Source: a virus
Lineage: Duplodnaviria; Caudoviricetes
Strand: one strand, 5' to 3'
DNA: 61,874 nucleotides
Virus record (IMG/VR): IMGVR_UViG_3300021404_000012
Coordinates: 1 to 61,874 of that record
Position numbers and translations under genes: made by a program. The notes under the pieces are model-generated. The model saw nothing but the letters and a program-made list of their open reading frames with translations. It made no database searches and was not told the DNA's origin. How positions within the stretch are numbered: position 1 is the stretch's first letter; each line of letters opens with the position of its first letter. Positions 1 to 61,869 of this stretch are shown piece by piece.

Positions 1-126
1 CGCTTGTCTGGGGGATCGTCCCACCACAAGCGGGCGATCTCGTAGTTATCGCGTGCGCCCTCGAAGGGGTTCTCGATCCGGTCGATCACCCCGGCGTGTC
101 CGCGCCAGGGTGAGTGATCTCCGGTA
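1..126. repeat. Terminal direct repeat/assembly overlap, identical to 61744-61869
   Basis: Bases 1-126 match 61744-61869 exactly and are followed by a 2-nt indel; indicates a circular or terminally redundant complete genome. Confidence 0.95.
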
Positions 127-194: not shown

Positions 195-413
195 ACGCTC
201 CACACTTGGGTTCTCGCTCCTGATCGGGCTCGCGCTCACCTAAGGGGTTCTCGCAAGTACGAGGGCTCGCGCATGAGGCTGGGTTCTCGCAGTTTAATGG
301 GCTCGCGCGTGGGGCAGGGTTCTCGCTGATTGTGGGGCTCGCGCATTGACTAGGGTTCTCGCAGTACAAAAGGCTCACGCCGCTCGTTGGGTTCTCGCCA
401 GCACTTTGGGCTT
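195..413 (-). ncRNA. TIGR-like dual-repeat guide array (6 units) downstream of the helicase
   Basis: Alternating GCGCGAGCCC and GCGAGAACCC(C) repeats separated by 8-nt variable spacers, 36-37 nt period. Confidence 0.9.
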
Positions 414-4592: not shown

Positions 4593-6474
4593 CGAGCAAC
4601 GTCACACCCCAGCCGCCTTCGCTGGCGAGCGGCAGGTCGGGCGCCCAGGTAGGCGGGGTGCGGAACTGCCAGTCCAGCTCGGCGTCGATGTCCTCCGCTT
4701 CACTAACAGGGACACAATAGTCCAGGCTGTCGTGGGTACTGAGGAAGGGTCGATGCCCGGTGAGCTGGTACACCCGCACCATGATGTCGGTGACGATGAT
4801 GCGCGACAGCGCCTGTGACACATTCTCCGTCACCTTCGCGCCGTACACCCGCTGCGCCCCGCCGTAGGGGTCGTTGTAACAGGGCTCCAAGTCACCCGCC
4901 GGGTTCTCAAAATAACGCATCTCCGGGTAGGCGATCTTGAGCCCGTTCGGCAGTACGATGCTGTCGAAGTCGGCCTTGATCGGCAACCGGTCGAGCACCG
5001 CGTAAGCGGACGAGCGGGCGCGTACACCACGCAACGAACGCTGCCCGATGATCTCGCCGATCAGGTAGCCCAACGCGTTCCACAGGTCGGGGATTTCGAC
5101 AAAGGTAGTGCGGTAGTGGTTGACGATCCGCTTGGCCTCGTCGTCGCTCGCCCGATAGCTGATACCACCGTTGCCGATAAACAGCATGTGGCGGAACCGA
5201 TACGCGCCGCAGCCGTAACCAAGCCCCAGGATCGCCGTCTTCCCGACAAACCTTTCCTTGATGTGCTGGTGCCGGTCCACCACGTAGCCATAAACAAGCG
5301 AAGCAAACTCCGAATACACGTCGCGCCCTTGATTAAAGGCGATGAGTAAAGGTAAACAATATGCCATCCACGCCGTCATGCGCGCCTCGATCTGGCTCGC
5401 GTCGCGATGCACGATGCGCCATCCCGGCGGAGCCAGAATGGCCTCGCGGATGCGTGAGCCCCGCTTGAAGTTCTGCCAGTTCGTCCCGTCATCCCCCGAC
5501 AGGCGGTGCGTCCTCGCGCCTGAATACTTCAGGGGCACCGGCGCCCAGCCCATGCCCTGCATCGGCCAGGAGGTGTTGGCTAATCTCAGCAACGCCCTGG
5601 TTCGGGTTTCCTCGATCGTCGATTTGACGGCGAGCCGCGCTGCCAGCAAGGCTTGCACATAGATAGGCTGGCTCTCGTCGGCGCAGAGTTCCTTAAAGGC
5701 CCAGTCATTTTTTGCAATTGCTGGAATTTCCTCACCGGTCGCCGGCGATATCTTCATCGGCACATCGACGCCGGCATCTTCCAGCAGCGCAGCGAATTTT
5801 TTATTGGACGAGAATACAGCTTTATCAAGCTGTTCCACCTCGGCCATAACCGCCGCCTTCTCGGTCTGCACCTCGTCGAGATGCTCGGCCAGGAGCTGAT
5901 CGTCGAGCTGGACTTGGGGTAATATCCCCATGCGGAGTACGAGGTCGATGATCTGCAGCTCGTGCGCGGTGAAGCACGGGCGCAGCCGCTGGAAAATGTC
6001 GTGGCAATTCTCGTTATCGCGTTCGCAGTACGAGCGGTACGCGCTCAGCTCGGCGGGGGTGAAATCGGCGAGCCGTTTTCCTATGGCCCGCGTGACTTCA
6101 TCGCCCTTGGGCGGCAGCCCGATGTAGTCGGAAACCGCTCGGAGAGAACTCTTGCCGATCCGCCAGTGCGTCGTCGCCCGCGCCATCGACAATGTGTCGA
6201 GATAGAGTTTCGGCACGTAGCCGAAGCGCCACGCGAGGATCGCGCCGTCGAACCGGGTGTGGTGCGAGACCCATGCGACACGCGCCCAGTCGAGTTGACT
6301 GAGCGCGTGCGCGATGGCGTCGTACCCGACATGGGTCACAGTCGGCTGGTTGCCGACCTTAAGGGCCAGCATTATCGCCTCGAACCTAGGGTCGAGGATA
6401 TACTCAGCCTCGGACATTTTTGAGAGGCTGTAGTCCCGATCGTAGTAAGTTTCCCAATCCCCGGTGATGATCAT
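4567..6474 (-). CDS. polA: Family A DNA polymerase with 3'-5' exonuclease domain
   Basis: GDWET ExoI, HHTRFD ExoII, YCERD ExoIII; motif A DASQIEAR, motif B RFVGKTAILGLGYG, motif C THDS. Confidence 0.92.
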   Translation of the reverse strand: MIITGDWETYYDRDYSLSKMSEAEYILDPRFEAIMLALKVGNQPTVTHVGYDAIAHALSQLDWARVAWVSHHTRFDGAILAWRFGYVPKLYLDTLSMARATTHWRIGKSSLRAVSDYIGLPPKGDEVTRAIGKRLADFTPAELSAYRSYCERDNENCHDIFQRLRPCFTAHELQIIDLVLRMGILPQVQLDDQLLAEHLDEVQTEKAAVMAEVEQLDKAVFSSNKKFAALLEDAGVDVPMKISPATGEEIPAIAKNDWAFKELCADESQPIYVQALLAARLAVKSTIEETRTRALLRLANTSWPMQGMGWAPVPLKYSGARTHRLSGDDGTNWQNFKRGSRIREAILAPPGWRIVHRDASQIEARMTAWMAYCLPLLIAFNQGRDVYSEFASLVYGYVVDRHQHIKERFVGKTAILGLGYGCGAYRFRHMLFIGNGGISYRASDDEAKRIVNHYRTTFVEIPDLWNALGYLIGEIIGQRSLRGVRARSSAYAVLDRLPIKADFDSIVLPNGLKIAYPEMRYFENPAGDLEPCYNDPYGGAQRVYGAKVTENVSQALSRIIVTDIMVRVYQLTGHRPFLSTHDSLDYCVPVSEAEDIDAELDWQFRTPPTWAPDLPLASEGGWGVTLLDAERRVNA

Positions 6475-6479
6475 TAGAC

Positions 6480-6516
6480 GCGCCCTCGATTGGGGTTCTC
6501 GCATTGGAAAGGGCTC
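6480..6516 (-). ncRNA. Single TIGR-like guide unit
   Basis: GAGCCC-tttccaat-GCGAGAACCCC-aatcgagg-GCGC in the intergenic gap before polA. Confidence 0.85.
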
Positions 6517-6522
6517 ATCACA

Positions 6523-7242
6523 TTATGATCCTTCTACTTTCGGGGTCAACTTCCAATCTTCAATCGTGCACTGGACCGGTGCCTTATCGACGACGATGCC
6601 GTGCATCTGCGCCCCGGTGAACAGCGCAGAGATCACTTCCATCTTTTCCTCGTTATCGACAAACCAGTCATACGCGCCGCCGCTGCTCGGCCAGTCGAAC
6701 GCGTTGGTATTCCGGGGCAGGTGGCGCACCCGCTCGGCCCACGGGTTGCCCATCTCCTGCGCGACCACCGTCATCCCCGGCCAGCGCTTGATCAGCGAGG
6801 CGAGGGTGCCGCCATGACAGCGGGATAAAAATTCATCGATGATCCTCTTGGCGACGCGCATCTGGCGCGCATACTCAAGCGCCGGGTCGAGCCACGCGTG
6901 GAACGCCTCCCGCTTATCGGCGGTCAGCGCGGCGAGGTTGAACCGCCGGGTCCCGCCGGCGAAGTAAGGATACTTCAAATCCCTCGACACGATCTTCAGC
7001 GTGACCATCGCCTCGGGGGTGACCACTTGCACGTCCAAGGAGTTGGCCTCGTGATGGTACACCTTTGCCTCCTTGACCATGCGCCACGCCTCCTGCAGCT
7101 CACGCGGCCACACGCAGTCGAACGCCTCCTGCGCCGTCAGCGGAAAGTCGAGCAGCCGCAGCGCGAGCGTGCTGTCGATCAGGTCGTTGGCTTTTCTCTT
7201 GAACTGCCGCAGGGGTTCAGGATTGGTCTTATAGTTTGGCAT
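6523..7242 (-). CDS. Hypothetical protein
   Basis: ORF with GGAGTGTGA RBS. Confidence 0.7.
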   Translation of the reverse strand: MPNYKTNPEPLRQFKRKANDLIDSTLALRLLDFPLTAQEAFDCVWPRELQEAWRMVKEAKVYHHEANSLDVQVVTPEAMVTLKIVSRDLKYPYFAGGTRRFNLAALTADKREAFHAWLDPALEYARQMRVAKRIIDEFLSRCHGGTLASLIKRWPGMTVVAQEMGNPWAERVRHLPRNTNAFDWPSSGGAYDWFVDNEEKMEVISALFTGAQMHGIVVDKAPVQCTIEDWKLTPKVEGS

Positions 7243-10514: not shown

Positions 10515-11723
10515 TTAACTTCTCGCGGCACGAAGAATGTCCTTGTTGTCGACCAGCCACTGCTGGACCTCACGCAGGGGCATCAGCGCCTTGGCACGAC
10601 GGATGTGCGCCATCGTCTGCTCGGTGTCCTTGTCCTCGTGACCGCCCAGCATCACGTCGAACGCGATACGCTGCATCTCGGTGCTGAAGCGCAGCACATA
10701 GCGGGTGATGGCTTGGGCTGTATCTTCAGTAACTTGGTCTGCCAACATGTACGAGCACACCATCTGCGCGTCCTTACCCGCCGGCACCTTCGCAGAACGG
10801 GGGTTCTGGAAGATGTCTTCCAACGCCGGTATCTCGTTGGCAAAGCGCATGTGGGTGAAGAACTGCCCTTGGGCGTGCTTGCCGATCCAGCCCTGGCAGA
10901 TTTCCGCCGCCATCAGGGTCATCGGCAGCTTGTCGTTGGCGATGTCCTGCTCGGTCATCATCACCCGCAGGTCCGCGTCCATCTTGCACAGCGTGCGTGC
11001 GGTGCAGAACGGCTCGGGCTTGTCGGGGACTTCCCTTGGAAAAACAATATCGGGTTGCCTCGCAATGAACGCCCTGGTCAGGATGTGCGGGCGATCGTCG
11101 TCGGGCAGGTCCTCAAGGTGACGTAACAAACAACCCGGATCACCCTCGATCTCCATCAAGCCGTGACGGTTGATGATGTGCATCAGCTCGCGGTTGGTAC
11201 CCGACCGGTCGCTGGTCCGGTTCTTGGCACCGACCACCCGCCATGCAGGAGGGAGAAAATGCGTGCCGACGTTGCCGTCGAGGATCAGCGGCGCCGCCGC
11301 CTTGCGCACGTCCTCGTCCGCCTGACCCCACTCGTCGAGAAAAACCACCCCCACTTCAGGAACCTCACCGTCCCAAGTGCCGGGAGGGTAAACCTCCCCG
11401 TCGGGGGTGAAGACCCAGATGTTGTCAACGTCCGGCATCCACGGGGGTAAAGAAAAAACAGTTCTTGGAACCCCGCCCTTGTCGTCCTTGATGGGGATCA
11501 TAAAACCCCGGATGTCGGGGGTCGTCAGGTTGGCGATCATCTCGATGACTAAACCGACTGGGCAAGCCAGTCGTTTAGCGAGACGAGCGCACATTTGTTC
11601 TATACTCTTGCTCTTGCCGACACCGGGTCCCGACTGCAGCATGTACCCGTTGGCACGGGTGCCCCTGCGGATCGCGTCGATATGGGTGTCGATGAGATGC
11701 GCTCTTGCTTGTTCGATATTCAT
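10515..11723 (-). CDS. MoxR-like AAA+ ATPase
   Basis: SGPGVGKS Walker A, VVFLDEW Walker B, sensor N (GAKNR), TARTL. Confidence 0.88.
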   Translation of the reverse strand: MNIEQARAHLIDTHIDAIRRGTRANGYMLQSGPGVGKSKSIEQMCARLAKRLACPVGLVIEMIANLTTPDIRGFMIPIKDDKGGVPRTVFSLPPWMPDVDNIWVFTPDGEVYPPGTWDGEVPEVGVVFLDEWGQADEDVRKAAAPLILDGNVGTHFLPPAWRVVGAKNRTSDRSGTNRELMHIINRHGLMEIEGDPGCLLRHLEDLPDDDRPHILTRAFIARQPDIVFPREVPDKPEPFCTARTLCKMDADLRVMMTEQDIANDKLPMTLMAAEICQGWIGKHAQGQFFTHMRFANEIPALEDIFQNPRSAKVPAGKDAQMVCSYMLADQVTEDTAQAITRYVLRFSTEMQRIAFDVMLGGHEDKDTEQTMAHIRRAKALMPLREVQQWLVDNKDILRAARS

Positions 11724-11786
11724 CGTAGTCACACTCTCCACTACCGGTAGTCACCAGGGACAATCCCTGGTAACGCCCTGTGTATA

Positions 11787-11919: not shown

Positions 11920-12385
11920 CTCGCGCTCGAGCAAGGGGTTCTCGCTATTCATGGGGCTCGCGCAGATCGTTGGGGTTCTCGCCAACTGCTGGGCTCGCGC
12001 CTCATCAAGGGTTTTCCGCTAGGTAAAGGGCTCGCGCCGGGGTAAGGGGTTCTCGCCTAACGTTGGGCTCGCGCTTGATCAAGGGTTCTCGCAAGGCACC
12101 AGGCTCGCGCTCATCGTAGGGGTCATCGCAATAAAGGGGGCTCGCGCAAATCGTGGGGGTTGTCGCTTATGACCGGGCTCGCGCTTAGGGCTGGGTTTCT
12201 CGCTCAAGATTGGGCTCGCGCCCACGTTTGGGTTCTCGCTACTCGTAGGGCTCGCGCAATTTCAAGGGTTTGTCGCTCCAGATTGGGCTCACGCTCCTGC
12301 TAGGGGTTCTCGCTGATGGTTGGGGCTCGCGCCGCTCGAAGGGGTTATCGCAACTATTAAGGCTCGCGCCTACTTTCGGGTTGTC
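11919..12385 (-). ncRNA. Main TIGR-like dual-repeat guide array (12 units plus a partial unit) downstream of the Tas-like gene
   Basis: 36-37-nt period, two alternating repeats, 8-nt unique spacers. Confidence 0.93.
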
Positions 12386-12484: not shown

Positions 12485-13372
12485 TTATGCAGGGATCGGG
12501 GGTGGGATGTAGTCGACGTGGTGCAAATGACCGATGGGGTACGGCACCGGCGACGCTTGCCCGGTGCGGATCAGCCACACTTCGTTCATGTGAGACAAAA
12601 ATAACTTCACCGCCCAGCGTCGTGCCCTCGCGTCTATCTGCGAGGGTGGCAGCCGGCCCTCGGCGTAATGCTTATAAGTGGGTGTATCCTTGGCAAAACG
12701 AGGCAGCCACTCCTTCGCGGTCTCGACCCGTTTGCCGGTATCGGACATCATCTGTTCAAAGGCTTTTCGCTCGCGGTATTTTCTTCCGTAGAAGCAATCT
12801 TCACGGTTCGAGAGTTTCATAAACGACTGCCCCGCGTGCCAGCATATGGTCTTGAGCTGCACGTTGAAGGGGCGCACCTGGCCCGCCTTCCACGGTTTCT
12901 GGTCGGCTGCGGCCCACCCGACGAATGAATTGATATGACCAGCCGTGGGTCTGGGCACCTCCAGATGCGCGAGAATGCCCGCGCTGATCACCGGCCCGAT
13001 CCCGACGATCTGCCGCATCCAACTACCCATTATATGGGCAGTTGTATAGGTATCCAGGGCGCGCTTGATCTGGCTCTCTAAAATTCTCGACTGATTAAAA
13101 AGCCAGTCGATTAGGACGTGGGGTTCTGGCGTTGTCAGAACTTCACCAGCATCTTCCTCGACCACGACGCCCCTCGCCATCGCGCGGATTTGGTTCGCCG
13201 CGCGCTTGCGGTTTTCCTGCGATGTGTAATACGCATCGACCAAAAATCTGGCTTCTTTTGGACCCATCGTGCGGGCGGCGTTGGCTAAATCTCTGGTTAA
13301 CCTGATGACAGACGGCGCGTGCTCGATGATTTCCTCGTCATCGACATAGGTCGCATAGGCTGGCGATGCCAT
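12485..13372 (-). CDS. Nop-domain/IS110-related RNA-guided DNA-binding protein (TasA-like, no RuvC or HNH)
   Basis: Coiled-coil region then GIGPVISAGILAHL (IS110 Transposase_20-like HhH), PFNVQLKT, YGRKYRERK, IDARARRWAVKLFLSH; no N-terminal DEDD RuvC; flanked on both sides by dual-spacer arrays. Confidence 0.8.
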   Translation of the reverse strand: MASPAYATYVDDEEIIEHAPSVIRLTRDLANAARTMGPKEARFLVDAYYTSQENRKRAANQIRAMARGVVVEEDAGEVLTTPEPHVLIDWLFNQSRILESQIKRALDTYTTAHIMGSWMRQIVGIGPVISAGILAHLEVPRPTAGHINSFVGWAAADQKPWKAGQVRPFNVQLKTICWHAGQSFMKLSNREDCFYGRKYRERKAFEQMMSDTGKRVETAKEWLPRFAKDTPTYKHYAEGRLPPSQIDARARRWAVKLFLSHMNEVWLIRTGQASPVPYPIGHLHHVDYIPPPIPA

Positions 13373-13405
13373 GTTGTTCCCTCCCACTTAACTACGGTAG
13401 TGGGA

Positions 13406-13470: not shown

Positions 13471-13765
13471 GCGCTGTACAAAGGGGTCATCGCGCGTTGT
13501 AGGGCTCGCGCCCGACGGAGGGTTCTCGCGGTGATACGGGCTCGCGCCAGTCATCGGGGTTATCGCGGAGGATTGGGCTCGCGCTCGTAGTCGGGGTCAT
13601 CGCTTCTTGAGGGGCTCGCGCCGCTTGTCGGGGTTATCGCTCATGTGCGGGCTCGCGCTCGTTGCAGGGGTTGTCGCATATAGCTGGGCTCGCGCTCACC
13701 TTAAGGGTTCTCGTCGTCAACTGGGCTCGCGCACCAGAAAGGGGTTATCGCTTGCTTCAAGGCTC
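13471..13765 (-). ncRNA. TIGR-like guide array (8 units) upstream of the Tas-like gene
   Basis: Same alternating repeats and 8-nt spacers. Confidence 0.92.
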
Positions 13766-17359: not shown

Positions 17360-17423
17360 CACTCACTCCACTACGGTAGTGGCGGTGAATAGTACCATCG
17401 TACTTTCACCGAACAAATCGTGG

Positions 17424-19532: not shown

Positions 19533-19873
19533 GATTGCGAACTCACACTTTGGTTGTCGGGACGATGTTGTCCCATCAATGGCGAAGCTGATTTGAACTA
19601 CCGGTAGTGCCACCTTCACCGTCACAAAGTGACGGTGCGGACCTGGCCCTTGTGCATGATGCGTGCGTCATTATGCGTGCATCCCGTGCGCGTCACGAGG
19701 CTTCGGCCAGCCCCCGGCCCCGGTCTGTCCATGGCCCCCGGCCTGGCTCCCGCCGCCACCTGCAGCGCCTAGACGAGAGTGACCCAAAAAGTGAAGTTAA
19801 CTTTTATTAACGCCACTTCACCACTACGGTAGTGCGGTACGTCGCACCGGCAGCCCTAGGAACTGCCGGTGCC

Positions 19874-20201
19874 GCGCGTCACTCTGGGTTTCACGCCTAA
19901 AAAAGGGCTCGCGCCATCTGTTGGGTTCAATCGCACATCCTTGGGCTCGCGCCGCATCAAGGGTTTTCCGCTCACCTAAGGGCTTACGCTACTTGCCGGG
20001 TTTTCCGCTTTCCATTTGGTTCGCGCGTTTCTTCGGGGTTCTCGCACAAGGTCGGGCTCGCGCTGCCTGTCGGGTTCTCGCTCAGGACTGGGCTAAATCG
20101 AACCGCCGGCGCCGCCGGCGGCTCACACGCAGAGTGTCGGGGTTTTCGCCTGTAACTGGGTTCGCGCAATACATAGGGTTCAACGCGTGTCCTGAGGGCT
20201 C
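19874..20201 (-). ncRNA. TIGR-like guide array (6+2 units, split by a GC hairpin at 20103-20121)
   Basis: Alternating repeats (loop variants GCGGAAAACCC, GCGATTGAACCC) with 8-nt spacers; 3' hairpin at 19843-19872. Confidence 0.85.
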
Positions 20202-22133: not shown

Positions 22134-22257
22134 GTAATATAGTTGCACTGCCTGCCGCTTGGTGTTTGCTGGCGGGCTGGGTTAGACGGCGAGTGCCATA
22201 AAAACCCCGTCATCGGGTGGGGGCCTTTTCACACTCGGCCCCGCGACCCGATTTTTT

Positions 22258-22294
22258 GAGCCCGGCCAGGGGCGAGAACCCCACCGCATAGCGC
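22258..22294 (+). ncRNA. Single TIGR-like guide unit
   Basis: GAGCCC-ggccaggg-GCGAGAACCCC-accgcata-GCGC followed by a terminator. Confidence 0.85.
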
Positions 22295-22296
22295 GG

Positions 22297-22323
22297 AACC
22301 GGCCCCCTGCGGGGCCGGTTTTT
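22297..22323 (+). terminator. Terminator after the single guide unit
   Basis: AACCGGCCCC-ctgc-GGGGCCGGTT followed by TTT. Confidence 0.75.
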
Positions 22324-22342
22324 ATGGTTACTACCGGTAGTG

Positions 22343-23470: not shown

Positions 23471-24883
23471 TCACGTCCACGCCGCTGATGAATACGGCGC
23501 TAACCCTGTGCCTTGCGTAGGGTTAAAGAAGCGGCGTTCTCGCATGAGAACCCTGCCGGTGAGGTTGCTCTGGGTGCCCAGGCAGAAATACTGGAGCGCG
23601 TCGCAGATATCCGACCAGGGGTGTAATTTCTCAGGTATGTCGTCGAGGACGCCGTCGCGGCGCCGCCTGTATCGATACTTATTACCGAGGGCGGAAATCA
23701 GGATCGGGCACCCGATCCTGCTTATTTGCAGGGCCGGCTGGCCCATCACCTGCTGTCTGAGGAATTTCTCGACGGCCAGCAACCGCATATCAATTACATT
23801 CGTACTCGCAGGGTAGGCTAAAAATCCCTCCTCCTTCAACACGTCGAAGGGGGTTTCTTCCCTGGTTTGCGACCGTTGGCGACCCGCAGGATCACCCACC
23901 ACAAAAACTCTTTTCCCCGCAAACGGCGGCGCCAGTAAGACCGGCTTGAGGTGCTCCTGCAGCATCTGCACCAGCCCCATGCCCTCGGTGACGATCTCCT
24001 TCATAATTATGGCTCTGCCGTAATTATCGTGCTGCCCGATCAGCGCGCACGGCGTGCGTCCGAAGTCCAAACCGATCATCAGGGGTTTGTTTGGATTAAC
24101 TGTTACACTCATGTCCTTGACGTGGGTGGGCGCGTGGAAGGTTCGCCTGAACACCGCCTGGCCGGCGTTGCTCTCGCCCCACTGGCTCTCGACGTGAACC
24201 AGGGACCACTCAACATCCTTGTCCCCCATTAATTCATCATAGTAGCCGTCAGGAAGGTTCTCGACGTTCTCGGCGTCGGGGCCGATGCCTGACGGCTGGT
24301 GATACAGCGCCCATGACGGGTGCGGATTTAATACCAGCCGGTCGTGGTAGGGACTTTCTGTATCCCAGGGATTTGTATCGGCGATGATCCCGCGCCAAGT
24401 GGCGCCGCCGAGGGCCTTGGAGGGATATCTTCCACACCGACCCAGTAGTGGGCGGATGATGTCGAACGGCACTTCACGCAGCTCGTTGATCCACGCGCCG
24501 GTGAGCTGCATTGAGAGTAACCTTCGGACATCTTCCTTGTTGTCCAACGGCAGTAGCATCCAGTCGCTGTGAACGCCTGTCCCATCCGGCAGGTGCAGCC
24601 TCACCTGCAGCGTGCTGTCGGTGACATAGTAGTGAACCGTCTCGCCCATGTACTGGATCGCGTCGGCTAGGACGGTCTGGCGGAGTTGCTGCAGCGTGTT
24701 TCTGATGAGCGCGAAGCGGGTGTAGCGGACGCCGTTGCTCGGCTCCTGCTCGATCGCCCGCCGCAGCAGCTCCATAATGCAGCCCATGGTCTTGCCCGAA
24801 CCGAGGGGGCCGACCAGCACGCGGATGACGTGTTGATCATCCAGCATGAAGTCCTGCACGGTTGGCGGGGGCTGGAAGAACAT
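23471..24883 (-). CDS. terL: Terminase large subunit
   Basis: GPLGSGKT Walker A, AWINE Walker B, DTNP, GLDFGRTP RNase H fold, GDPAG, DALQY. Confidence 0.93.
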   Translation of the reverse strand: MFFQPPPTVQDFMLDDQHVIRVLVGPLGSGKTMGCIMELLRRAIEQEPSNGVRYTRFALIRNTLQQLRQTVLADAIQYMGETVHYYVTDSTLQVRLHLPDGTGVHSDWMLLPLDNKEDVRRLLSMQLTGAWINELREVPFDIIRPLLGRCGRYPSKALGGATWRGIIADTNPWDTESPYHDRLVLNPHPSWALYHQPSGIGPDAENVENLPDGYYDELMGDKDVEWSLVHVESQWGESNAGQAVFRRTFHAPTHVKDMSVTVNPNKPLMIGLDFGRTPCALIGQHDNYGRAIIMKEIVTEGMGLVQMLQEHLKPVLLAPPFAGKRVFVVGDPAGRQRSQTREETPFDVLKEEGFLAYPASTNVIDMRLLAVEKFLRQQVMGQPALQISRIGCPILISALGNKYRYRRRRDGVLDDIPEKLHPWSDICDALQYFCLGTQSNLTGRVLMRERRFFNPTQGTGLAPYSSAAWT

Positions 24884-24902
24884 TGTCTACCAGTCCCCGC
24901 CC

Positions 24903-24944
24903 GCGCATGGGACAGGGTTTTCACGCGGGTTCGTGGGCTCGCGC
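24903..24944 (-). ncRNA. Single TIGR-like guide unit between terS and terL
   Basis: GCGCGAGCCC-acgaaccc-GCGTGAAAACCC-tgtcccat-GCGC. Confidence 0.8.
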
Positions 24945-24954
24945 CAATCTAGCA

Positions 24955-25521
24955 TCATACTTCGACATCCTCAAACTCGGCGTCGTCCTCGTCGGGACGC
25001 AGCGAGATCGACTGCCGGGGCGGCGGGATTTCATCGGCTTCCACTACGGTAGTGGCGCGGTAATCCTTGCGGCCCCCGGCGAAGTTGATGGTCAGGTTGA
25101 ACGCGGCGCCGAGGGACTTTTGCTGCGCGTCCTTGGCGCCGGCGGGCGCCCCATCCACGCCGGCTCCCCTCTGGAATTGCTTAAAACCGTCGATCCGCTG
25201 CGCGATCGGTGTCCTCGGGTCGTTGATCAGCGCCGTCATCGGGATGATTAATTGTTCAGTGGCGTGCATGAACTTGTTGCGTATCCGCACCTCGGTTGCT
25301 TCGTCGCTCAAGTAGAGCGCCCGCAGTTTGCGCGCCTCGTAGACAATAACCGGGTGCAGCCGCAGGTATTCCTTGAGCGCATCCTTGCCGTCGAGCCCGT
25401 AGCGGTGGGCGATCGTCTCGGCGTCGTGCATCCCCATCGCGAGGTCGTACTGCAGCCGCAGTATCAGCGCGTCTTCCTGCGCCGGGTTCGGGTCGTAGAT
25501 CGAAGGATAAGGGCTGCTCAT
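24955..25521 (-). CDS. Probable terminase small subunit
   Basis: Immediately upstream of terL; N-terminal HTH-like region, FNLTINF strand, acidic tail. Confidence 0.65.
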   Translation of the reverse strand: MSSPYPSIYDPNPAQEDALILRLQYDLAMGMHDAETIAHRYGLDGKDALKEYLRLHPVIVYEARKLRALYLSDEATEVRIRNKFMHATEQLIIPMTALINDPRTPIAQRIDGFKQFQRGAGVDGAPAGAKDAQQKSLGAAFNLTINFAGGRKDYRATTVVEADEIPPPRQSISLRPDEDDAEFEDVEV

Positions 25522-25597: not shown

Positions 25598-27781
25598 TTG
25601 CCGCCGGCGTTGCCCGTAGGGAACCCGCCAACGATCTCGCTGGCACGCGAGAACGGGCCAGGTTTTCTGCGCGTGGTCAGCCCCGCGACGCTGGATCGCC
25701 AGGAACAGGACCGCCTCGCGGTCGCCTCGCAGGCGAACCGCCCGCAGGCGATCGACAACCTGGCGCACTTCATTCGCGGGCGGTGGGACCACATGCGGAA
25801 CCACCGCAATTCCAACCGCAACCCGCTCAACGAGCGCCTCCTGCGCGCGCAGCGCATGTTCGAGGGCCAGTATGACCCGTCGAAGCTGAACGAAATCAGG
25901 AAGTTTGGCGGTTCCGAAGTCTACTCGCGGCTGGTCGCCGTCAAGTGTCGGGGCGCTACAAGCCTGCTCCGCGACGTGTACCTGGGGCCTGAGCGCCCGT
26001 GGTCGATCGACCCCCAGCCCGATCCGCCGGTCCCGGCGGGGGTTATCCGCAACATCACCGAACTCGTCGCCGCCGAGGCCGCGCAGCTCGCCCACGCCAA
26101 TCAGCACTTGGACGACGATGAGGCGCACGGGCGCTACATCGGCCTGATGCGGCAGGCGCAGAACGCGGCGCGGCGCATGGCCGACAGCCAAGCCGAGGCG
26201 GCGTCCAACAAGGTCGATGACATCCTGACCGCCGGCGGGTTCTACGATGCGCTGGCGGAATTTCTGGTCGACGTTGCCCTGTACCCGTTCGCGGTCATCA
26301 AGGGGCCGGTGGTCCGCATGGTGCAGAAGCTGGTGTGGAACGGGCGCCAGCCCAGCGTCAACATCGTGCCGCAACTGTTCTGGGAACGCGTCGATCCCTT
26401 CAACTTCTACTGGGACCCTGGCGCCACGGACATCGAACGCGCCGAGCTGATCGAGCGCAAGCGGTTCAAGCGCAGCGATCTCAACGAGGTGCTTGGTCTA
26501 CCGGGGTATAACGACGCGGCGATCCGGGGGGCTCTGCAGGATTACGCGAATGGCCTGCGCGACTGGATGGACAGCCCCGACACCGAGGCCGCGCTGAATG
26601 TCGGGCGCGAGGCGCCGCAGCAGAACCTCTCGCAGTTTATCGACGGGATCGAGTATCACGGCAGCGTCCAGGGTAAGACCCTGCTCGACGAGGGGATGAA
26701 CCCCGCCCAGATACCCGATCCCGATCGTGATTACCTGGTTCAGTCTTGGGTTGTTGGGCGGTATACTATCAAGACCCAACTAACGCCAAGTCCGCGCCAG
26801 CGGCATCCTTACTACGTTACTAGTTTCGAGAAAGTACCCGGCACTATTGCTGGGCATGGACTGCCGGATATTCTTGAGGATTTGCAGGAAGTCGCCAACG
26901 CCACGCTGCGCGCGCTGGTCAATAACATGAGTATAGCGAGCGGCCCCCAGGTTGTTATCAATACCGAATTACTCGACCCCACCGTTAACGAAGACCAATT
27001 ATATCCTTGGAAACGCTGGAAAGTTAATAGTGATCCGCTGGGCATGACCCGCGAGCCGGTGACCTTCTTCCAGCCGCAGTCGAACGCCCAGGAGTTGATG
27101 ACGATTTATCAGGCCATGTCGAGCCTGGGCGACGACATCTCGGCAATTCCTCGGTACGTCACGGGTGAGAGTTTGTCGGGTGGCGCGGGGCGCACGGCGT
27201 CTGGCCTGTCCATGCTGATGGGCAACGCTCAGAAAGTATTGCAGACAGTAGCGGCAAATATCGACATCGACGTTATGCGGGGGGTTCTTAACTCCCTGTA
27301 CGACATGATCATGCTGACCGATACAACCGGGCTGTTGTCTGGCGACGAACAAATAAAAGTCAACGGCGTTGTGGTCGCGCTGCAAAAAGAGACCGAGCAC
27401 CAGAAGCAGCTACAATTCTTACAAATAACGGGTAATCCCATTGATATGCAAATTGTTGGTTTGACTGGCAGAGCCAGGGTGCTGCGCGCGCTGGCGACCG
27501 GGCTGGGTCTGCCGGACGACATCGTGCCGGACGACGACACGATGCAGCAGAAGGAAAAAGACGCCAAGGACATGCAGACGGCAGCCGCGATGGGCGCGGC
27601 TCAGGGCGCGGTTCAGGGGGGCGGTCCACCCGGCGGTCCTCCTGGGGCGGCTCCTCCCGGCCTGCCAGGGTCTTCCCCTCCCACACAAGGGCAGGCTGGG
27701 CAGGGGTCGCCCGCAATTCCCCCGGCCTCGCTGTCGCAGATGGCGCCGCCGGTCAACACCGTTCAGCCGCGCGCGGCTTGA
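25598..27781 (+). CDS. Portal protein
   Basis: 727 aa, first gene of the structural operon; VDPFNFYWDP, GAGRTASGLSMLM, Gln/Pro/Gly tail. Confidence 0.88.
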   Translation: MPPALPVGNPPTISLARENGPGFLRVVSPATLDRQEQDRLAVASQANRPQAIDNLAHFIRGRWDHMRNHRNSNRNPLNERLLRAQRMFEGQYDPSKLNEIRKFGGSEVYSRLVAVKCRGATSLLRDVYLGPERPWSIDPQPDPPVPAGVIRNITELVAAEAAQLAHANQHLDDDEAHGRYIGLMRQAQNAARRMADSQAEAASNKVDDILTAGGFYDALAEFLVDVALYPFAVIKGPVVRMVQKLVWNGRQPSVNIVPQLFWERVDPFNFYWDPGATDIERAELIERKRFKRSDLNEVLGLPGYNDAAIRGALQDYANGLRDWMDSPDTEAALNVGREAPQQNLSQFIDGIEYHGSVQGKTLLDEGMNPAQIPDPDRDYLVQSWVVGRYTIKTQLTPSPRQRHPYYVTSFEKVPGTIAGHGLPDILEDLQEVANATLRALVNNMSIASGPQVVINTELLDPTVNEDQLYPWKRWKVNSDPLGMTREPVTFFQPQSNAQELMTIYQAMSSLGDDISAIPRYVTGESLSGGAGRTASGLSMLMGNAQKVLQTVAANIDIDVMRGVLNSLYDMIMLTDTTGLLSGDEQIKVNGVVVALQKETEHQKQLQFLQITGNPIDMQIVGLTGRARVLRALATGLGLPDDIVPDDDTMQQKEKDAKDMQTAAAMGAAQGAVQGGGPPGGPPGAAPPGLPGSSPPTQGQAGQGSPAIPPASLSQMAPPVNTVQPRAA

Positions 27782-35620: not shown

Positions 35621-37363
35621 TTGGTCGCATGGGAGATCAAGGGTATGGGGGGCGTGATCCCCCGGCAGGACGACCGTCTTATTGGCGACAATATGGCGGT
35701 GGAGGCGGCGAACTGCGACCTTACCGGCGGTCAGCTTGTTGGTCTCCCACAGGCCGAGCTGCAGATCGATCTCAGCGGCCAACTACCAGTAGTGGAGAGG
35801 GCTTATCGGTTTCCGCCCGACGACACCGGAGCTACTGTCTGGCTGCCGTTGCCTTCGCGCTACAGCTCCGTTGTCCGCTCGCCGCTGGCGAACGACGACA
35901 CGAACCGGGTCTACTGGACAAATCCCGGCGACCCGGTGCCGTGGTTCAACACGCGCGACCGCATCAAGGCGGGCCAGCCAGCCTATAATCTGGGTATCGT
36001 ACAGCCGACGACAGCGCCGTCGATCACCGACGTAACGGGTGGCGATACGACCGTACCGGCGATCGATCGCGCGTATGTCTATACATTTACCAATAGCTTC
36101 GGCGAGGAAACCTCACCCTCGCCGGCAAGCGCCATCGCGACGGGTCCGCCCGATGCGACGTGGACCGTTACCGGGTTCCCCACGGCGGCACCGGCTAATC
36201 CTGCGGGTGTGAATTACGCACCCATTACTAAGTATCGGATTTACCGGACGATCACCGGGCAGACGACCGGGGCGCAATTTTACTTCGTCGCGGAAGCGGC
36301 GCTGCCGAATGGCAATCCGACCTATGTTGACACTCAGCCGGACAGCACTGCGGTCTATAACGAGGTGCTGGAAACCGTGGGGTGGGGCAACCCGCCTTCC
36401 GGGCTCGACGGCCTGGTCGCGATGCCGGGTGGTTTTCTCTGCGGCTTCACCGGCAACACGGTGCATTTTACGGAGCCCAACCGCCCGCACACCTGGCCTT
36501 TCGTTTATGACCAGAGCGCGCACTACAAGATCGTCAACCTCGCGGTGTGGCAACAGTACCTCATGGTGCTGACGCAGGGTTACCCCTCGGCGGGCTCGGG
36601 CAATATGCCCAGCAACATCATCCTTGTGCAGTCTCAGGTCGCGGAGCCGTGCATCGCGCGGGGCTCGGTCATGGTCGATTTGTCGGGGGTTTATTACGCC
36701 TCGCAAAACGGCTTGGTTCTGTTCACCGGCTACGGGATGCAGAACATGACGGCGGGGGTCGTCGAGAAGAACGAGTGGCTCAACTACTATCATGCCGAGG
36801 ACTTGGTGGCGTGCCGGCACCGCGCGCAGTTTATGGCGGTCAACGGCACCGATCAGGGTTTCCTCATCGACTACGCGGAGGTGCGGCTGGGGTTCGAGGA
36901 CCTCACCACGCTAAAGGACGTGGTGTGCATCTGGAACGACGAGTACACCGGCGACACGCTGATGTGCGCGGACGGGCGCATCTATGAGTGGGATTGTCCC
37001 GATACGCCCCCGCAGGTTTACCGGTGGAAGTCAAAGCAATGGTTCACGCCGATGCCGCTAAGCCTTGGCGCGGCGCAGGTTGAGCTGGACCCGCAGATAT
37101 ACGACACAGCACCGACTGACCCGATCCCGCTCGACAATGGCGACCCGGCGATGCAGCTCCCGGCGGGGATCAACGCGCAGTTCCGCTACTACGCGGGGCC
37201 AAAGCTGACGTTGATTATGACCCGCAACCTGACAAAGCAGATGGAGATTTTCCGCCTCCCGAAAGGCTTTAAGGCGTTCGACCATCAGGCCGAAGTCCTA
37301 TCGCGTGTACCCATCTCGTCGATCCAACTGGCTTCAACGCTCACCGAATTAAAGGTGACGTGA
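35621..37363 (+). CDS. Tail nozzle/stabilisation protein
   Basis: 580-aa beta-rich protein; [34 protein letters not shown]. Confidence 0.7.
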
Positions 37364-39612
37364 TGCCACCGCCAAACGAGATCGTCCTCCGTGGTTCGCC
37401 GACGATTGGCTCGCAGACGCCAAGGCTGGTTTCGACGCGCCCGGTTACCAACCCGTTTACGCCGCCCATCCCGCAGCCGCTGACGGGTGACGCGCAAAAC
37501 ACGGCAGCGTGTATTAGTGCTCTGAAAGCCTCCGTCGAAAGTTTGATCGGGCAGCGCGGCGACGCATCCAACCGCGCGGTGTTGTTTCGCGATCTCGTGT
37601 CTTATGGGCTCCTCGATCCTAATGCGGTCAAGAGCGCGCACGGATCAGCGGCTCCGATTGGTCCGCCGGGGCCAGAGGGGCCGAAGGGGGATCAGGGTCC
37701 GCAGGGGGCAACGGGGCCGTCAGGCCCGCAGGGACCGACCGGTGGGACAGGCCCGCAGGGACCGGCAGGCCCAACCGGGGCGACGGGTACAAAGGGCGAT
37801 AAAGGTGACACCGGAGCGACTGGCGCGACGGGTGGGACAGGCCCGCAGGGACCGAAAGGCGACACCGGGGCAACCGGTGCGACCGGAGCGGCGAGCACGG
37901 TGCCGGGACCGACGGGTGCGACCGGTGCGACTGGTGCGACCGGAGCGGCGAGTACTGTGCCGGGACCGACGGGGGCGACGGGCGCTACAGGCCCAGCGGG
38001 ACCGACCGGGGCGGTTGGGCCAACCGGGCCGACGGGGGCAACCGGCGCGACCGGCTCGGGGAGCTATCAAGCGGGCAGCGGGATTGCCATTAATACCGGC
38101 ACGACGCCGCCGACGATCTCGACCGCGACACCCTATCTACCGCTTACGGGCGGTACCCTCTCGGGGCCGGGAAACCTGACGGTTAATGGCTATCTGGGTG
38201 TCGGCACCACGCCGCCCTCGGACGCCATCGCTGGCACCATAATGGCGAGTGTTCTGACCACATCGTCAGGCACCGCACTTTATAACAACGTCTACAGTGG
38301 GAGTGGTGGCGCTAAGTTACTGACCGCCGCCGCCGCGAGCGCGTTCAACATGGGAAGCGGCAGCTTTGTTTTCTACACCGCCCCTTCCGGCGCTGCGGGA
38401 TCGACCCCGGCGTGGACGCAGCTTGCGGGGCTCAGTAGCGCCGGCAACCTCCAGCTCGCCGGCAACTACCTCTACTTCGCCAACGCCACCGGCGCGGCTA
38501 ACAGCACAGGCGGACCGCTGATCTATGGTGACGCTGGTACGATGGTGTTTAAAAGTACCGGAAGCAACGGCTTTTGGTTCCAGAACAGCACTGGCACCAA
38601 TATCGCGCAGATCACTAGCGCGGGGCATATCATTCTCGGCAACACCAGTATTTATTGGGGGAATGTTGCGGCCGGTTCCGCAGGGCCACGGATGACCGCC
38701 GACACCACGAACTTTGGGTGGATACTTGGCACTGGAAATGGTGCCTTTAATTGGTACAACAACAGCCAAGCTGTAGTGCTGACGGTTACTGCTGCTGGTA
38801 TTCTCAATACCTTAGGCACAATTAACGCGGGAGCCAACGTCAACGCCGTTCAGTTACAGGCCACGACTGCCAGCGCGATGGTGGCAACCTTTCAACGTGA
38901 TAATTCGAGCATAAACTGGGGTTTTTATGGCAGTGGGGGTACAGGAAGGCTATGGAACAGTTCTAGTGGTGATGTTTTACAATTCAGTAGTGCTGGTCTT
39001 AATCTCAACTCTACTAGTTTCGCTACTGCCAATGCCACGAATGCCGGTTACAACATAGTCAAAGATAATAATGGCGCTGGTTCGCTTTATTGTGGTAATG
39101 CCAGTGATCAGACCAATTACTATCGGCAGAACAGACATCTTTTCCAGGGCACCGATAGCGGTGGGTCAGTAAGCTTTGCCCGCATCGACCCCAATGGGGT
39201 CACGAGTTTCAATCATGTCTACCCGGCCACCGACAACTCGTCGTGGTGCGGCGTGCAGCCGTGGGCGCAAAACTGGTACGCCGTTTCTGCCTATAACTTC
39301 ATCAATGCTTCGGATGTTCGCGAGAAGACCGACATCGAGGGACTGCCGGATTGTCTCGATCTGGTCCGCGCGCTGAACCCGAAACGGTACCGGCTGCGCA
39401 ATTGCCCCGAATACGACCGGCACCGGCTGCACTGGGGCTTTGTGGCGCAGGAGGTTGGCGAGGTCATGGACGCCGCCGGTCACGATTTCAGCGGCGGGCA
39501 CCTGATCTACAACGACCATCACGGACTGAGCAACCAAGCGCTGACGGCGGTCCTGTGGAAGGCCGTCGCCGAACTGGCGGCCGAGGTCGCGGCGCTGAGG
39601 GGGGCGGCATGA
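37360..39612 (+). CDS. Collagen-repeat tail fibre with peptidase S74 chaperone
   Basis: Gly-X-Y run at ~37660-38060; SDVREKTDI...HWGFVAQE. Confidence 0.85.
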
Positions 39613-53863: not shown

Positions 53864-53965
53864 CCCTACCTCGGGCGAGAACCCCTAAAGAAGCGCGAGC
53901 CCTGTTGGCAGCGCGAACCCAGCTACAGGCGCGAGCCCCGGAGGAGGTGCCAACCCCCGTAACAA
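53861..53965 (+). ncRNA. TIGR-like guide array (about 3 units) at the end of the virion operon
   Basis: AGCCC-N8-GCGAGAACCC-N8-GCGCGAGCCC-N8-GCGCGAACCC-N8-GCGCGAGCCC. Confidence 0.8.
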
Positions 53966-61743: not shown

Positions 61744-61869
61744 CGCTTGTCTGGGGGATCGTCCCACCACAAGCGGGCGATCTCGTAGTTATCGCGTGCG
61801 CCCTCGAAGGGGTTCTCGATCCGGTCGATCACCCCGGCGTGTCCGCGCCAGGGTGAGTGATCTCCGGTA
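61744..61869. repeat. Terminal direct repeat/assembly overlap, copy of 1-126
   Basis: Exact copy of the window start. Confidence 0.95.

What the first reader, a model, noticed from the sequence alone, without database searches (positions are those of the whole stretch)
24361..24944. Guide between terS and terL matches the TNPWDT motif of terminase with synonymous-only mismatches
Guide target ACG-AAC-CCA-TGG-GAC-A versus own terL 24376-24361 ACA-AAT-CCC-TGG-GAT-A. The peptide is identical (T-N-P-W-D-T), 12/16 nt match, and all differences are silent. The cassette sits directly upstream of the gene it matches, at a conserved ATPase motif where a competitor could only escape by silent change.
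Basis: partly seen in the sequence, partly recalled or inferred. Interest (0 to 1): 0.88.

Follow-up and report, generated by a model that had tools for sequence, protein, structure and literature searches.

The report
Phage TIGR guide matching terminase gene
A phage carries a one-unit guide RNA of the recently described TIGR-Tas system just upstream of its terminase gene, and that guide spells a conserved terminase motif exactly as one related environmental phage encodes it but not as the phage itself does, which gives a testable candidate for a natural TIGR target.

Summary
The window is a near-complete 61.9-kb phage with a TIGR-Tas system: a 300-aa Tas protein (12485-13387, minus strand; NCBIfam TIGR_Tas_endo 167.6 bits against a cut-off of 100), five dual-repeat arrays and three solo units. 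The "cassette" at 24902-24944 is a one-unit array in the terS-terL gap. Its two 8-nt spacers, joined by the published tandem-spacer rule, give ACGAACCCATGGGACA.

Own terL (24376-24361) matches 12/16, and all four differences are silent. Of 30 related terL loci, none has the window's allele. 23 match 14/16, 5 match 13/16, 1 matches 11/16, and one metagenome contig (L085) matches 16/16. Five relatives' records lack Tas.

A random spacer-like 16-mer gives a silent-only match of 12/16 or better in terL with probability 1.8e-4. Selection after the fact weakens this figure.

Limits:
- The "recoding" cannot be told from ordinary synonymous drift.
- The other 30 units show no comparable hits in relatives.
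- Tas appears to lack a nuclease, so binding or repression is more likely than cleavage.

My estimate is about 45% real targeting of related phages and about 30% coincidence.

The parts
24935..24944 (-). Full 5' edge repeat GCGCGAGCCC of the solo TIGR unit
   Evidence: 10/10 identical to the array edge repeat
24927..24934 (-). Spacer A, ACGAACCC
   Evidence: 8 nt between edge and loop repeat, as in the arrays
24915..24926 (-). Loop repeat variant GCGTGAAAACCC (12 nt, A-rich)
   Evidence: Begins GCG and ends CCC like the 10-nt consensus GCGAGAACCC. Similar long variants GCGTGAAACCC and GCGGAAAACCC occur in arrays 2 and 4
24907..24914 (-). Spacer B, TGTCCCAT
   Evidence: 8 nt between the loop repeat and the next GCGCG
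24897..24906 (-). 3' truncated edge repeat GCGCGGGCGG
   Evidence: First 5 nt match the edge repeat. Array 3 ends in the same way, GCGCGGGGGG. [quoted passage not shown]
24864..24901 (-). Stable hairpin directly after the unit, with the terL AUG in its loop
   Evidence: -26.4 kcal/mol, z -3.37, 0 of 200 shuffles fold as well. Arms were found as inverted repeat I1. Its role is not tested
24361..24376 (-). Own-genome counterpart of the predicted target, in terL codons T-N-P-W-D-T
   Evidence: 12/16 to spacer A + rc(spacer B), with all 4 differences silent
23471..24883 (-). terL, large terminase subunit, 470 aa
   Evidence: phrog_2, E 9.2e-19. 25 viral-contig relatives
24955..25521 (-). Gene upstream of the unit, terS by position, 188 aa
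   Evidence: ORF. The only family hit is phrog_36773 of unknown function, so the name terS rests on position alone
12485..13387 (-). tas gene, TasA-like effector, 300 aa
   Evidence: NF052498 at 167.6 bits, cut-off 100. Foldseek top hits are TasH 9w04 and TasR 9mty. The model is all-helical with no nuclease fold
11927..12369 (-). TIGR array 2, downstream of tas
   Evidence: Alternating edge and loop repeats, period 36-37
13475..13751 (-). TIGR array 3, upstream of tas
199..398 (-). TIGR array 1
19878..20167 (-). TIGR array 4
53875..53938 (+). TIGR array 5, short, on the opposite strand

Best explanation
The element between terS and terL is a one-unit TIGR array belonging to the phage's own TIGR-Tas system. 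Inferred steps: it is transcribed with the packaging operon, and Tas cuts it out as a tigRNA of about 38 nt. Spacer A then pairs with one DNA strand and spacer B with the other strand of the adjacent 8 bp, so the complex recognises the 16-bp site ACGAACCCATGGGACA. That site is the coding sequence of the invariant TNPWD ATPase motif of the large terminase, as written in at least one related phage lineage. The phage's own terL differs at all four silent positions. Published mismatch data for other Tas proteins suggest this would protect it. Because this Tas has no recognisable nuclease domain, the likely effect on a co-infecting relative with the matching allele is binding and a block to transcription or replication of terL, not cleavage. 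Shown here: the anatomy, the family membership, the match, and the existence of a guide-perfect allele in nature. Inferred: expression, processing, binding and any competitive effect.
For: System identity:
- Tas protein: NF052498 at 167.6 bits against a cut-off of 100; the structure model's best PDB matches are TasH and TasR complexes.
- Arrays of alternating 10-nt repeats with 8-nt spacers, period 36-37, flank tas on the same strand.
- The same gene-plus-array module sits in 5 otherwise unrelated viral records, with Tas 61-74% identical and always beside an array. 0 of those 5 has a TerL like this one.

Unit anatomy: perfect 5' edge repeat, two 8-nt spacers, a loop-repeat variant, and a truncated 3' edge like the natural array ends, all on the sense strand of the operon.

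Geometry: spacer A pairs one strand and spacer B the other (PMC12045711 sections 6-8). The 8-nt 3' overhang fits only A + rc(B); this is my derivation.

Match:
- 12/16 to own terL, with silent differences only.
- Chance of such a hit in terL is 1.8e-4 per random target.
- 3 of 31 units have a silent-only hit in the window, against 0.43 expected.

Relatives:
- 16/16 in L085, whose TerL is 84% identical.
- 0 of 30 loci share the window's allele.
- None of the 24 loci that include upstream sequence shows the cassette.
- 0 of 5 relatives' records have Tas, three of them at least 99% complete.
- In 2.9 million viral contigs the exact 16-mer occurs in 2 loci. One is in frame at TTNPWD of another phrog_2 terminase.

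Other points:
- The solo spacers together are 9/16 G+C, whereas array spacers average 42%. That fits an origin in G+C-rich coding DNA.
- For ParTasR, most single and all tested double mismatches abolished editing (preprint 10.64898/2026.07.30.739390, section 11). This would make the own allele immune.
Against: - Post-hoc selection. With 31 units against 62 kb, 0.43 silent-only hits are expected by chance, so only the adjacency to the unit makes this one improbable.
- Given a peptide-level match, a perfect relative is not rare: 10 distinct alleles were seen out of 64 synonymous combinations.
- 28 of 30 relatives differ from the guide by 2-3 bases (one by 5). By the published mismatch sensitivity they would not be targeted, so the guide would act only on a narrow lineage known from one 3.9-kb contig.
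- The other 30 units give no consistent hits in 5 relatives' genomes. Hits at 2 mismatches or fewer are near the null rate.
- Other TIGR phages (G001-G005) show no self hits or silent-only hits.
- Own-versus-L085 divergence in the 16-mer is 25%, equal to the gene-wide 24.6%. There is no sign of directed recoding.
- Two closer soil relatives have an insert in the same gap but a 13/16 allele (single low-depth contigs).
- Expression, processing and binding are untested.
- The mismatch data come from a nuclease TasR with 9-nt spacers, not from this TasA-like protein.
Confidence: 0.45

Rival explanations
1. Coincidence. The solo unit is a real TIGR unit, but its spacers have another, unknown target. 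The resemblance to the terL motif is one of the many near-matches that 16-nt guides produce.
For: The window holds 7 places at 12/16, and 0.43 silent-only hits are expected per 31 units. Hits at 2 mismatches or fewer in the relatives' genomes run at about the null rate of 0.2-0.7 per genome. Xu et al. (bioRxiv 10.64898/2026.09.09.750476, Discussion) state that short spacers give many false-positive target matches. No other unit hits the relatives, and there is no replication in other TIGR phages.
Against: The hit lies in the gene directly downstream of the unit, in frame and silent-only, with a chance of 1.8e-4 per target, or about 0.006 across 31 units. A guide-perfect allele exists in a relative. 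The solo spacers are G+C-rich, unlike the array spacers.
Confidence: 0.3
2. A drive resembling homing or marker exclusion. Units target sites a few hundred bases from their own insertion point in relatives that lack the insert. Stalling or breakage there during co-infection is repaired from the TIGR-bearing genome, which copies the unit or array across. The carrier is protected by silent mismatches, as with phage homing endonucleases.
For: Two array-terminal units have 14/16 matches just downstream of themselves. Unit 11963 matches 11724-11709, the start codon region of the next gene, at -218 nt; one mismatch is the silent GAA/GAG and the other lies 5' of the ATG. Unit 19914 matches 19791-19776 at -102 nt. 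About 0.011 such hits are expected within 300 nt, scaling the null of 1.13 per genome. The solo unit's match lies 546 nt downstream. The correct geometry gives 11 hits within 1.5 kb, against 4-5 for three wrong geometries. Faure et al. suggest a role in MGE inheritance or mobility.
Against: No nuclease domain is found in Tas. No cis enrichment appears in 6 other TIGR-bearing records. Exact forms of these targets were found only in unrelated low-G+C phages. The available relatives are too diverged at those sites to test the idea.
Confidence: 0.12
3. Self-regulation. The Tas-tigRNA complex binds the phage's own terL (12/16, including two G:T wobbles, with seed positions 4-5 of both spacers paired) to damp or time terminase expression.
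For: TasA and dead TasR act as RNA-guided transcriptional repressors (preprint section 12). The unit sits in the same operon as its match. Another unit matches an intergenic site beside a recurrent palindrome at 15/16 (17398-17413).
Against: Four non-Watson-Crick positions in 16. Published single and double mismatches largely abolish activity. Relatives run the same operon without the unit.
Confidence: 0.08

Closest known systems
Dual-repeat TIGR-Tas systems (Faure, Saito et al., Science 2025; PMC12045711), especially the nuclease-less TasA class and the 16-nt-spacer system of Salicola phage CGphi29
   Same: A Nop-domain Tas protein. Arrays of two alternating short repeats (10 nt here) with two short spacers per unit (8 + 8 nt). 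Period 36-37. Arrays on both sides of tas. 3' truncated edge repeats at array ends. Phage-borne.
   Different: Five arrays and three solo units are scattered over the genome, up to about 40 kb from tas, and one single unit lies inside the packaging operon. Repeat termini are GCG...CCC rather than the UG...CCA described for TasR. A candidate natural target is identified, which the papers I read say is generally lacking.
Virus-borne mini-CRISPR arrays and solitary repeat units aimed at related viruses
   Same: A virus carries a minimal guide unit whose spacer matches a conserved gene of close relatives, while its own copy is mismatched.
   Different: The guide chemistry and the protein family are different (Nop-domain Tas, split 8+8-nt guide, no PAM). 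No cleavage activity is predicted here.
IS110/IS621 bridge-RNA recombinases
   Same: A homologous RNA-binding domain: weak NF033542 hit, Foldseek ranks 10-16, phrog_4285 'transposase'. The guides are split and read both DNA strands.
   Different: No DEDD or serine recombinase domain, no donor loop, and tandem arrays instead of a single bridge RNA. NF033542 scores 15 bits against a cut-off of 140, so it is not a member.
Phage homing endonucleases with intronless homing or marker exclusion (for example the T4 seg and mob genes; recalled)
   Same: The target lies near the element's own insertion site in relatives that lack it, and the carrier allele is protected by silent differences.
   Different: Protein-guided nucleases versus an RNA-guided binder that seems to lack a nuclease. 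No evidence of gene conversion here.

Membership tests
TIGR-Tas system (whole locus) | Tas protein with a Nop-type RNA-binding domain | tested here: met
   NF052498 TIGR_Tas_endo at 167.6 bits, cut-off 100, residues 46-271 on model positions 1-214 of 215. Foldseek top 9 hits are TasH and TasR complexes with probability 1.00 and TM about 0.5.
TIGR-Tas system (whole locus) | Array of two distinct alternating 8-12-nt repeats separated by spacers of about 9 nt, next to tas | tested here: met
   GCGCGAGCCC and GCGAGAACCC alternate with 8-nt (sometimes 9-nt) spacers at period 36-37, on both sides of tas and on the same strand. 31 units were parsed.
TIGR-Tas system (whole locus) | Edge and loop repeats share box D (5') and box C (3') termini that covary | tested here: met
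   Both repeat types begin GCG and end CCC. The letters differ from the UG...CCA of TasR, which the paper allows as long as the two repeats covary.
TIGR-Tas system (whole locus) | Processing into tigRNAs of about 36 nt bound by Tas | not testable with these tools
   No RNA holder was listed among the public runs.
Dual-repeat Tas | C-terminal Y/H processing loop | tested here: inconclusive
   H290 and P282 are invariant in 37 of 37 homologues. Candidate Tyr283 is Y in 24 and F in 13; Tyr293 is Y in 16 and F in 11. The published catalytic residues were not mapped onto this protein.
TasA (nuclease-less class) | No HNH or RuvC domain fused to the Nop domain | tested here: met
   No Pfam family at E up to 1. 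The AlphaFold model (mean pLDDT 82.5) is helical with a single beta hairpin at 74-86, and residues 1-23 are disordered. Absence of catalytic activity is not proven.
Solo unit as a functional TIGR unit | [quoted passage not shown] | tested here: inconclusive
   The 5' edge is 10/10, the spacers are 8 + 8 nt, and the unit lies on the sense strand of the operon. The loop is 2 nt longer than consensus and the 3' edge is truncated (7/10). [quoted passage not shown]
IS110 family transposase | Scores above the family cut-off and carries a DEDD catalytic domain | tested here: not met
   NF033542 at 15 bits against a cut-off of 140. No such domain appears in the model.

The most novel reading that the evidence does not exclude
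TIGR units in this phage behave as RNA-guided selfish markers. Each terminal or solo unit is aimed at a site 100-550 bp from its own insertion point, as that site is written in relatives lacking the insert. The carrier is immune through silent or non-coding mismatches. During co-infection the Tas complex would stall or damage the rival's copy, and repair would spread the unit. This would be an RNA-guided analogue of intronless homing and would give TIGR-Tas a natural function.
Probability: 0.12. Interest if true: 0.9.

Novelty: new member of a known kind. Interest (0 to 1): 0.62.

Why it matters
TIGR-Tas was described in 2025. Both the founding paper and a September 2026 preprint say that the natural targets of its spacers are essentially unknown, because 16-18-nt guides give too many false matches. 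My two full-text searches (tigRNA + terminase; TIGR-Tas + superinfection) found no paper. This locus offers a concrete, cheaply testable candidate. It is a single guide unit embedded in the packaging operon. Its 16-bp target is the invariant ATPase motif of the terminase as encoded by a related phage, and the carrier's own copy is silently mismatched. If confirmed, it would show a TIGR system used in phage-against-phage competition, and it would show how a system without a PAM avoids self-targeting. If it is a coincidence, the locus still documents dispersed and single-unit TIGR arrays far from tas. A search confined to the surroundings of tas, which is how TIGRFinder is described, would probably not pick these up; that is my inference.

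Tried and rejected
- Rfam gathering scan of the whole window: 0 families.
- Folding the 90-nt gap on either strand gave nothing above shuffles: z -0.98 and +0.53.
- Pfam on TerL, the terS-like protein and Tas: no families.
- blastn of the array region against 50,697 phage records: no match.
- The repeat pattern in 185,579 species' genomes gave 13 single hits and no arrays, so the arrays are not a host feature.
- I first thought the composite target was an illegitimate splice of opposite strands. I rejected that after reading the TIGR mechanism.
- The idea that array spacers in general target this phage's relatives is not supported: hits are near null.
- The idea that they target other TIGR-bearing phages is not supported: only one 15/16 hit, G001 to G003.
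- Shared spacers between phages: none at up to 3 mismatches.
- Exact-match scans for three other near-self targets found only unrelated low-G+C phages.
- The other two solo units gave nothing notable.
- Silent-only hits in G006-G008 other than terL: one different 12/16 hit per genome against 0.2-0.33 expected. I did not pursue these.
- A Tas homologue 88% identical on a 61.9-kb contig (P0003) could not be fetched.
- Public runs: no RNA holder listed.
- Parts of the stretch without contig cover carry no meaning.
- Supplementary files of the papers were not opened. Table S1 and figures S4-S9 of PMC12045711, and the TIGRSafari catalogue, may already list this locus or its spacers.
Full report
What the window is. 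The 61,874-base window is a virus record rated 98% complete, with a 126-nt direct repeat at its ends. Genes from about 0.4 to 25.5 kb run on the minus strand: helicase, DNA polymerase, an HNH-type protein, an ATPase, and the terminase subunits. The portal gene and later genes run on the plus strand. TerL (23471-24883, minus strand, 470 aa) belongs to phrog_2. Its nearest named relatives are Rhizobium phages at 41% identity. Twenty environmental viral contigs encode TerL at 72-85% identity.

Checking the observation. The 16-mer it called the guide target is not contiguous anywhere in the window. It is ACGAACCC (24934-24927, minus strand) followed by the reverse complement of TGTCCCAT (24914-24907). 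Own terL reads ACAAATCCCTGGGATA at 24376-24361. That is 12 of 16 identical, and the four differences fall in third codon positions of Thr, Asn, Pro and Asp.

What the cassette is. A repeat scan showed that the conserved flanks of the two 8-mers are not unique. The window holds long arrays of two alternating 10-nt boxes separated by 8-9 variable bases, with period 36-37. The arrays lie at 199-398, 11927-12369, 13475-13751 and 19878-20167, and on the other strand at 53875-53938. Isolated units lie near 6493, 22281 and 24915. The same box pair occurs in arrays of up to 62 boxes in seven other viral contigs. It occurs only as single, chance-level hits in 185,579 prokaryote species' genomes.

An all-against-all protein comparison showed that the only well-conserved protein shared with five of these contigs is the 300-aa product of 12485-13387. 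It is 61-74% identical and always lies directly beside the array. Those contigs have no TerL like this one. The protein matches NCBIfam NF052498, 'TIGR-Tas system RNA-guided endonuclease', at 167.6 bits against a cut-off of 100. An AlphaFold model (mean pLDDT 82.5) has TasH-tigRNA-DNA and TasR-tigRNA-DNA complexes as its nine best PDB matches, followed by IS621/ISCro4 recombinases.

The locus is therefore a TIGR-Tas system as described by Faure, Saito et al. (PMC12045711; I read sections 4-8 and 10 and the figure legends). On the minus strand the units read: edge repeat GCGCGAGCCC, spacer A (8 nt), A-rich loop repeat GCGAGAACCC, spacer B (8 nt, sometimes 9). I parsed 31 units. The model is helical apart from one hairpin and Pfam finds no HNH or RuvC domain, so the protein looks like the nuclease-less TasA class. 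The C-terminal loop has an invariant His290, but its tyrosines are often replaced by Phe, so the published Y/H processing dyad is not confirmed here.

The solo unit. On the sense strand of the packaging operon the gap holds, in order:
- a perfect edge repeat;
- spacer A;
- a 12-nt loop-repeat variant (similar variants occur in arrays 2 and 4);
- spacer B;
- a truncated edge repeat, GCGCGGGCGG, like the natural end of array 3.

It is followed by a strong hairpin (-26.4 kcal/mol; 0 of 200 shuffles fold as well) whose loop holds the terL start codon. In the 24 related loci that include upstream sequence, terS ends at or within a few bases of the terL start and nothing like the unit is present. 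The unit is therefore an insertion peculiar to this lineage.

The paper states three things: spacer A pairs with one strand and spacer B with the other strand of the adjacent segment; each strand is cut at the fifth position from box C; and the product has 8-nt 3' overhangs. Working these through, only the arrangement in which one DNA strand reads spacer A followed by the reverse complement of spacer B gives 3' overhangs of 8 nt. This is my derivation from the text, since the figures are not held.

How improbable is the match? A 12/16 match is not improbable: the window has 7 such places for this target. The silent-only, in-frame character is rarer.
- Among 930 control targets made by pairing spacer A of one unit with spacer B of another, 13 had any silent-only hit with up to 4 mismatches in an ORF of at least 100 aa. 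That gives 0.43 expected for 31 units.
- For terL alone, 400,000 random 16-mers with the spacers' base composition gave 1.8e-4 such hits per target. That is about 0.006 if every unit is allowed one adjacent gene.

The finding was selected after the fact, so I treat the effective chance as roughly 0.01-0.05.

I collected 30 terL loci with the motif, from viral contigs and one metagenome scan; several are the same contig held in both collections. DTNPWD is invariant in all 30. None has the window's allele.

| Match to guide | Loci (of 30) |
|---|---|
| 16/16 (L085) | 1 |
| 14/16 | 23 |
| 13/16 | 5 |
| 11/16 | 1 |

L085 is a 3.9-kb soil-type metagenome contig whose TerL is 84% identical, among the closest relatives, and it carries ACGAACCCATGGGACA exactly. 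The CCA proline codon needed for this was seen only there. Three complete relatives and two partial ones have no Tas. In the viral collection the exact 16-mer occurs in only two loci. One is in frame at TTNPWD in the phrog_2 terminase of an unrelated 85-kb phage; the other is antisense in a tail-like gene. However, once the peptide match is granted, the chance that one of 10 observed alleles among 64 synonymous combinations equals the guide is about 0.15, so this adds only a factor of two or three.

What weakens the interpretation.
- Own terL and L085 terL are 75.4% identical in DNA. Four changes in 16 bases is the gene-wide average, and silent sites are near saturation. 'Recoding to escape' cannot be separated from drift.
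- AAT and GAT are minority codons, at 31% and 33% in twelve genes, but not rare ones.
- For ParTasR most single mismatches and all tested double mismatches abolished editing (preprint 10.64898/2026.07.30.739390, section 11). For TasR and TasH, mismatches near the cut site are deleterious. If that holds here, the own allele is safe, but so are the 28 relatives with 2-3 mismatches. The guide would act only on an L085-like allele.
- The other 30 units give no consistent hits in five relatives' genomes. Their spacers are A+T-rich, 42% G+C in a 61% G+C genome, so they presumably aim elsewhere.
- Contigs from soil runs show closer relatives. One, about 90% identical, keeps the gap element with small indels in spacer B and the loop. 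Another has 229 other letters in place of 24890-24950. Both have the terL allele ACCAACCCGTGGGATA, which is 13/16 (single contigs at depth 2-5, whose letters I could not read).
- Expression and processing are untested, and the 3' edge repeat is incomplete. The paper found full edge repeats necessary in minimised arrays.

An unexpected pattern. Three other units have near-perfect matches in the phage's own genome, against 1.13 hits at 2 mismatches or fewer and 0 at 1 mismatch or fewer expected from 930 controls.
- Unit 272 matches 17398-17413 at 15/16. This is an intergenic site 15 nt from a copy of the palindrome CCACTACGGTAGTGG.
- The last unit of array 2 matches 11724-11709 at 14/16. This is the start codon region of the ATPase gene 218 nt downstream. 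One mismatch is the silent GAA/GAG and the other lies before the ATG.
- The last unit of array 4 matches a site 102 nt downstream at 14/16.

Scaling the null to 300 nt on either side gives about 0.011 expected such cis hits, against two observed. The correct geometry gives 15 hits at 3 mismatches or fewer, against 6-9 for three wrong geometries. It gives 11 hits within 1.5 kb, against 4-5. Together with the solo unit (546 nt downstream), this suggests that units tend to resemble nearby downstream sequence with a few mismatches. The pattern did not recur in six other TIGR-bearing records. Exact forms of these targets were found only in unrelated phages. The relatives at hand are too diverged at these sites, with the ATPase only 41-52% identical. 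I read this as modest support that the terL match is not chance. It also motivates the homing-like reading given as the novel case.

Mechanism and verdict. Most likely, at about 45%: the solo unit yields a tigRNA that directs the nuclease-less Tas dimer to the terminase motif-III coding sequence of a related phage lineage and blocks its expression or replication during co-infection. The carrier is protected by four silent differences. This fits the demonstrated repressor activity of TasA (preprint 10.64898/2026.09.09.750476, section 12) and the 'suppression of competing mobile elements' role that its authors list as open. Coincidence remains a serious rival at about 30%. A homing-like drive (about 12%) and self-regulation (about 8%) follow.

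The system itself is a new member of a known kind. What is new is the dispersed and single-unit arrays and a concrete candidate natural target. I found no paper linking tigRNAs to terminase or to superinfection. I could not open the papers' supplementary tables, which may list this locus.

Noticed in passing
window 17369-17383, 25042-25054, 19822-19834, 11738-11752, 175-187 and at least 6 more places: The palindrome CCACTACGGTAGTGG (core ACTAC-N2-3-GTAGT) recurs more than 10 times. It usually lies 10-30 nt upstream of a GGAG and a start codon, or just after a TIGR array. Variants sit at the same places in relatives, for example inside the 3' end of terS and before the ATPase gene. It is probably a family-wide regulatory site or RNA hairpin.
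   Followed up: partly
window 17398-17413; 11709-11724; 19776-19791: Three tigRNA units match the phage's own genome at 15/16, 14/16 and 14/16. All three sites are intergenic or at a gene start, and two lie 102-218 nt downstream of the unit that matches them. This is above the cross-paired null.
   Followed up: partly
G005 (loci L064-L066), arrays at 23868-25245 and 27341-27405: A 44-kb viral record with only 47.6% G+C carries the same G+C-rich edge and loop repeats, and a Tas 61% identical. The module has therefore moved between phages of very different composition.
   Followed up: no
G001 unit at 8586 versus G003 position 24007: One tigRNA target of one TIGR-bearing phage matches another TIGR-bearing phage at 15/16, where the cross-paired null gave 0.
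   Followed up: no
window 1-126 and 61744-61869: An identical 126-nt direct repeat lies at the two ends of the record. It is either a terminal repeat or an assembly overlap of a circular or permuted genome, although the record is classed 'linear'.
   Followed up: no
window 37700-38070: Runs of 9-nt-period repeats are rich in GGN codons (collagen-like Gly-X-Y) inside the large ORF 37360-39612, probably a tail fibre.
   Followed up: no
window 22230-22330 (+) and 6460-6560 (-): Two further isolated TIGR-like units. The one at 22272-22281 has degenerate edge repeats and is followed by a terminator-like hairpin with a T run. Neither has a notable match in the window or in five relatives.
   Followed up: partly
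window 24864-24901: A strong hairpin (-26.4 kcal/mol) pairs the inserted sequence with the first codons of terL and leaves the AUG in the loop. It may couple tigRNA processing to terL translation.
   Followed up: partly
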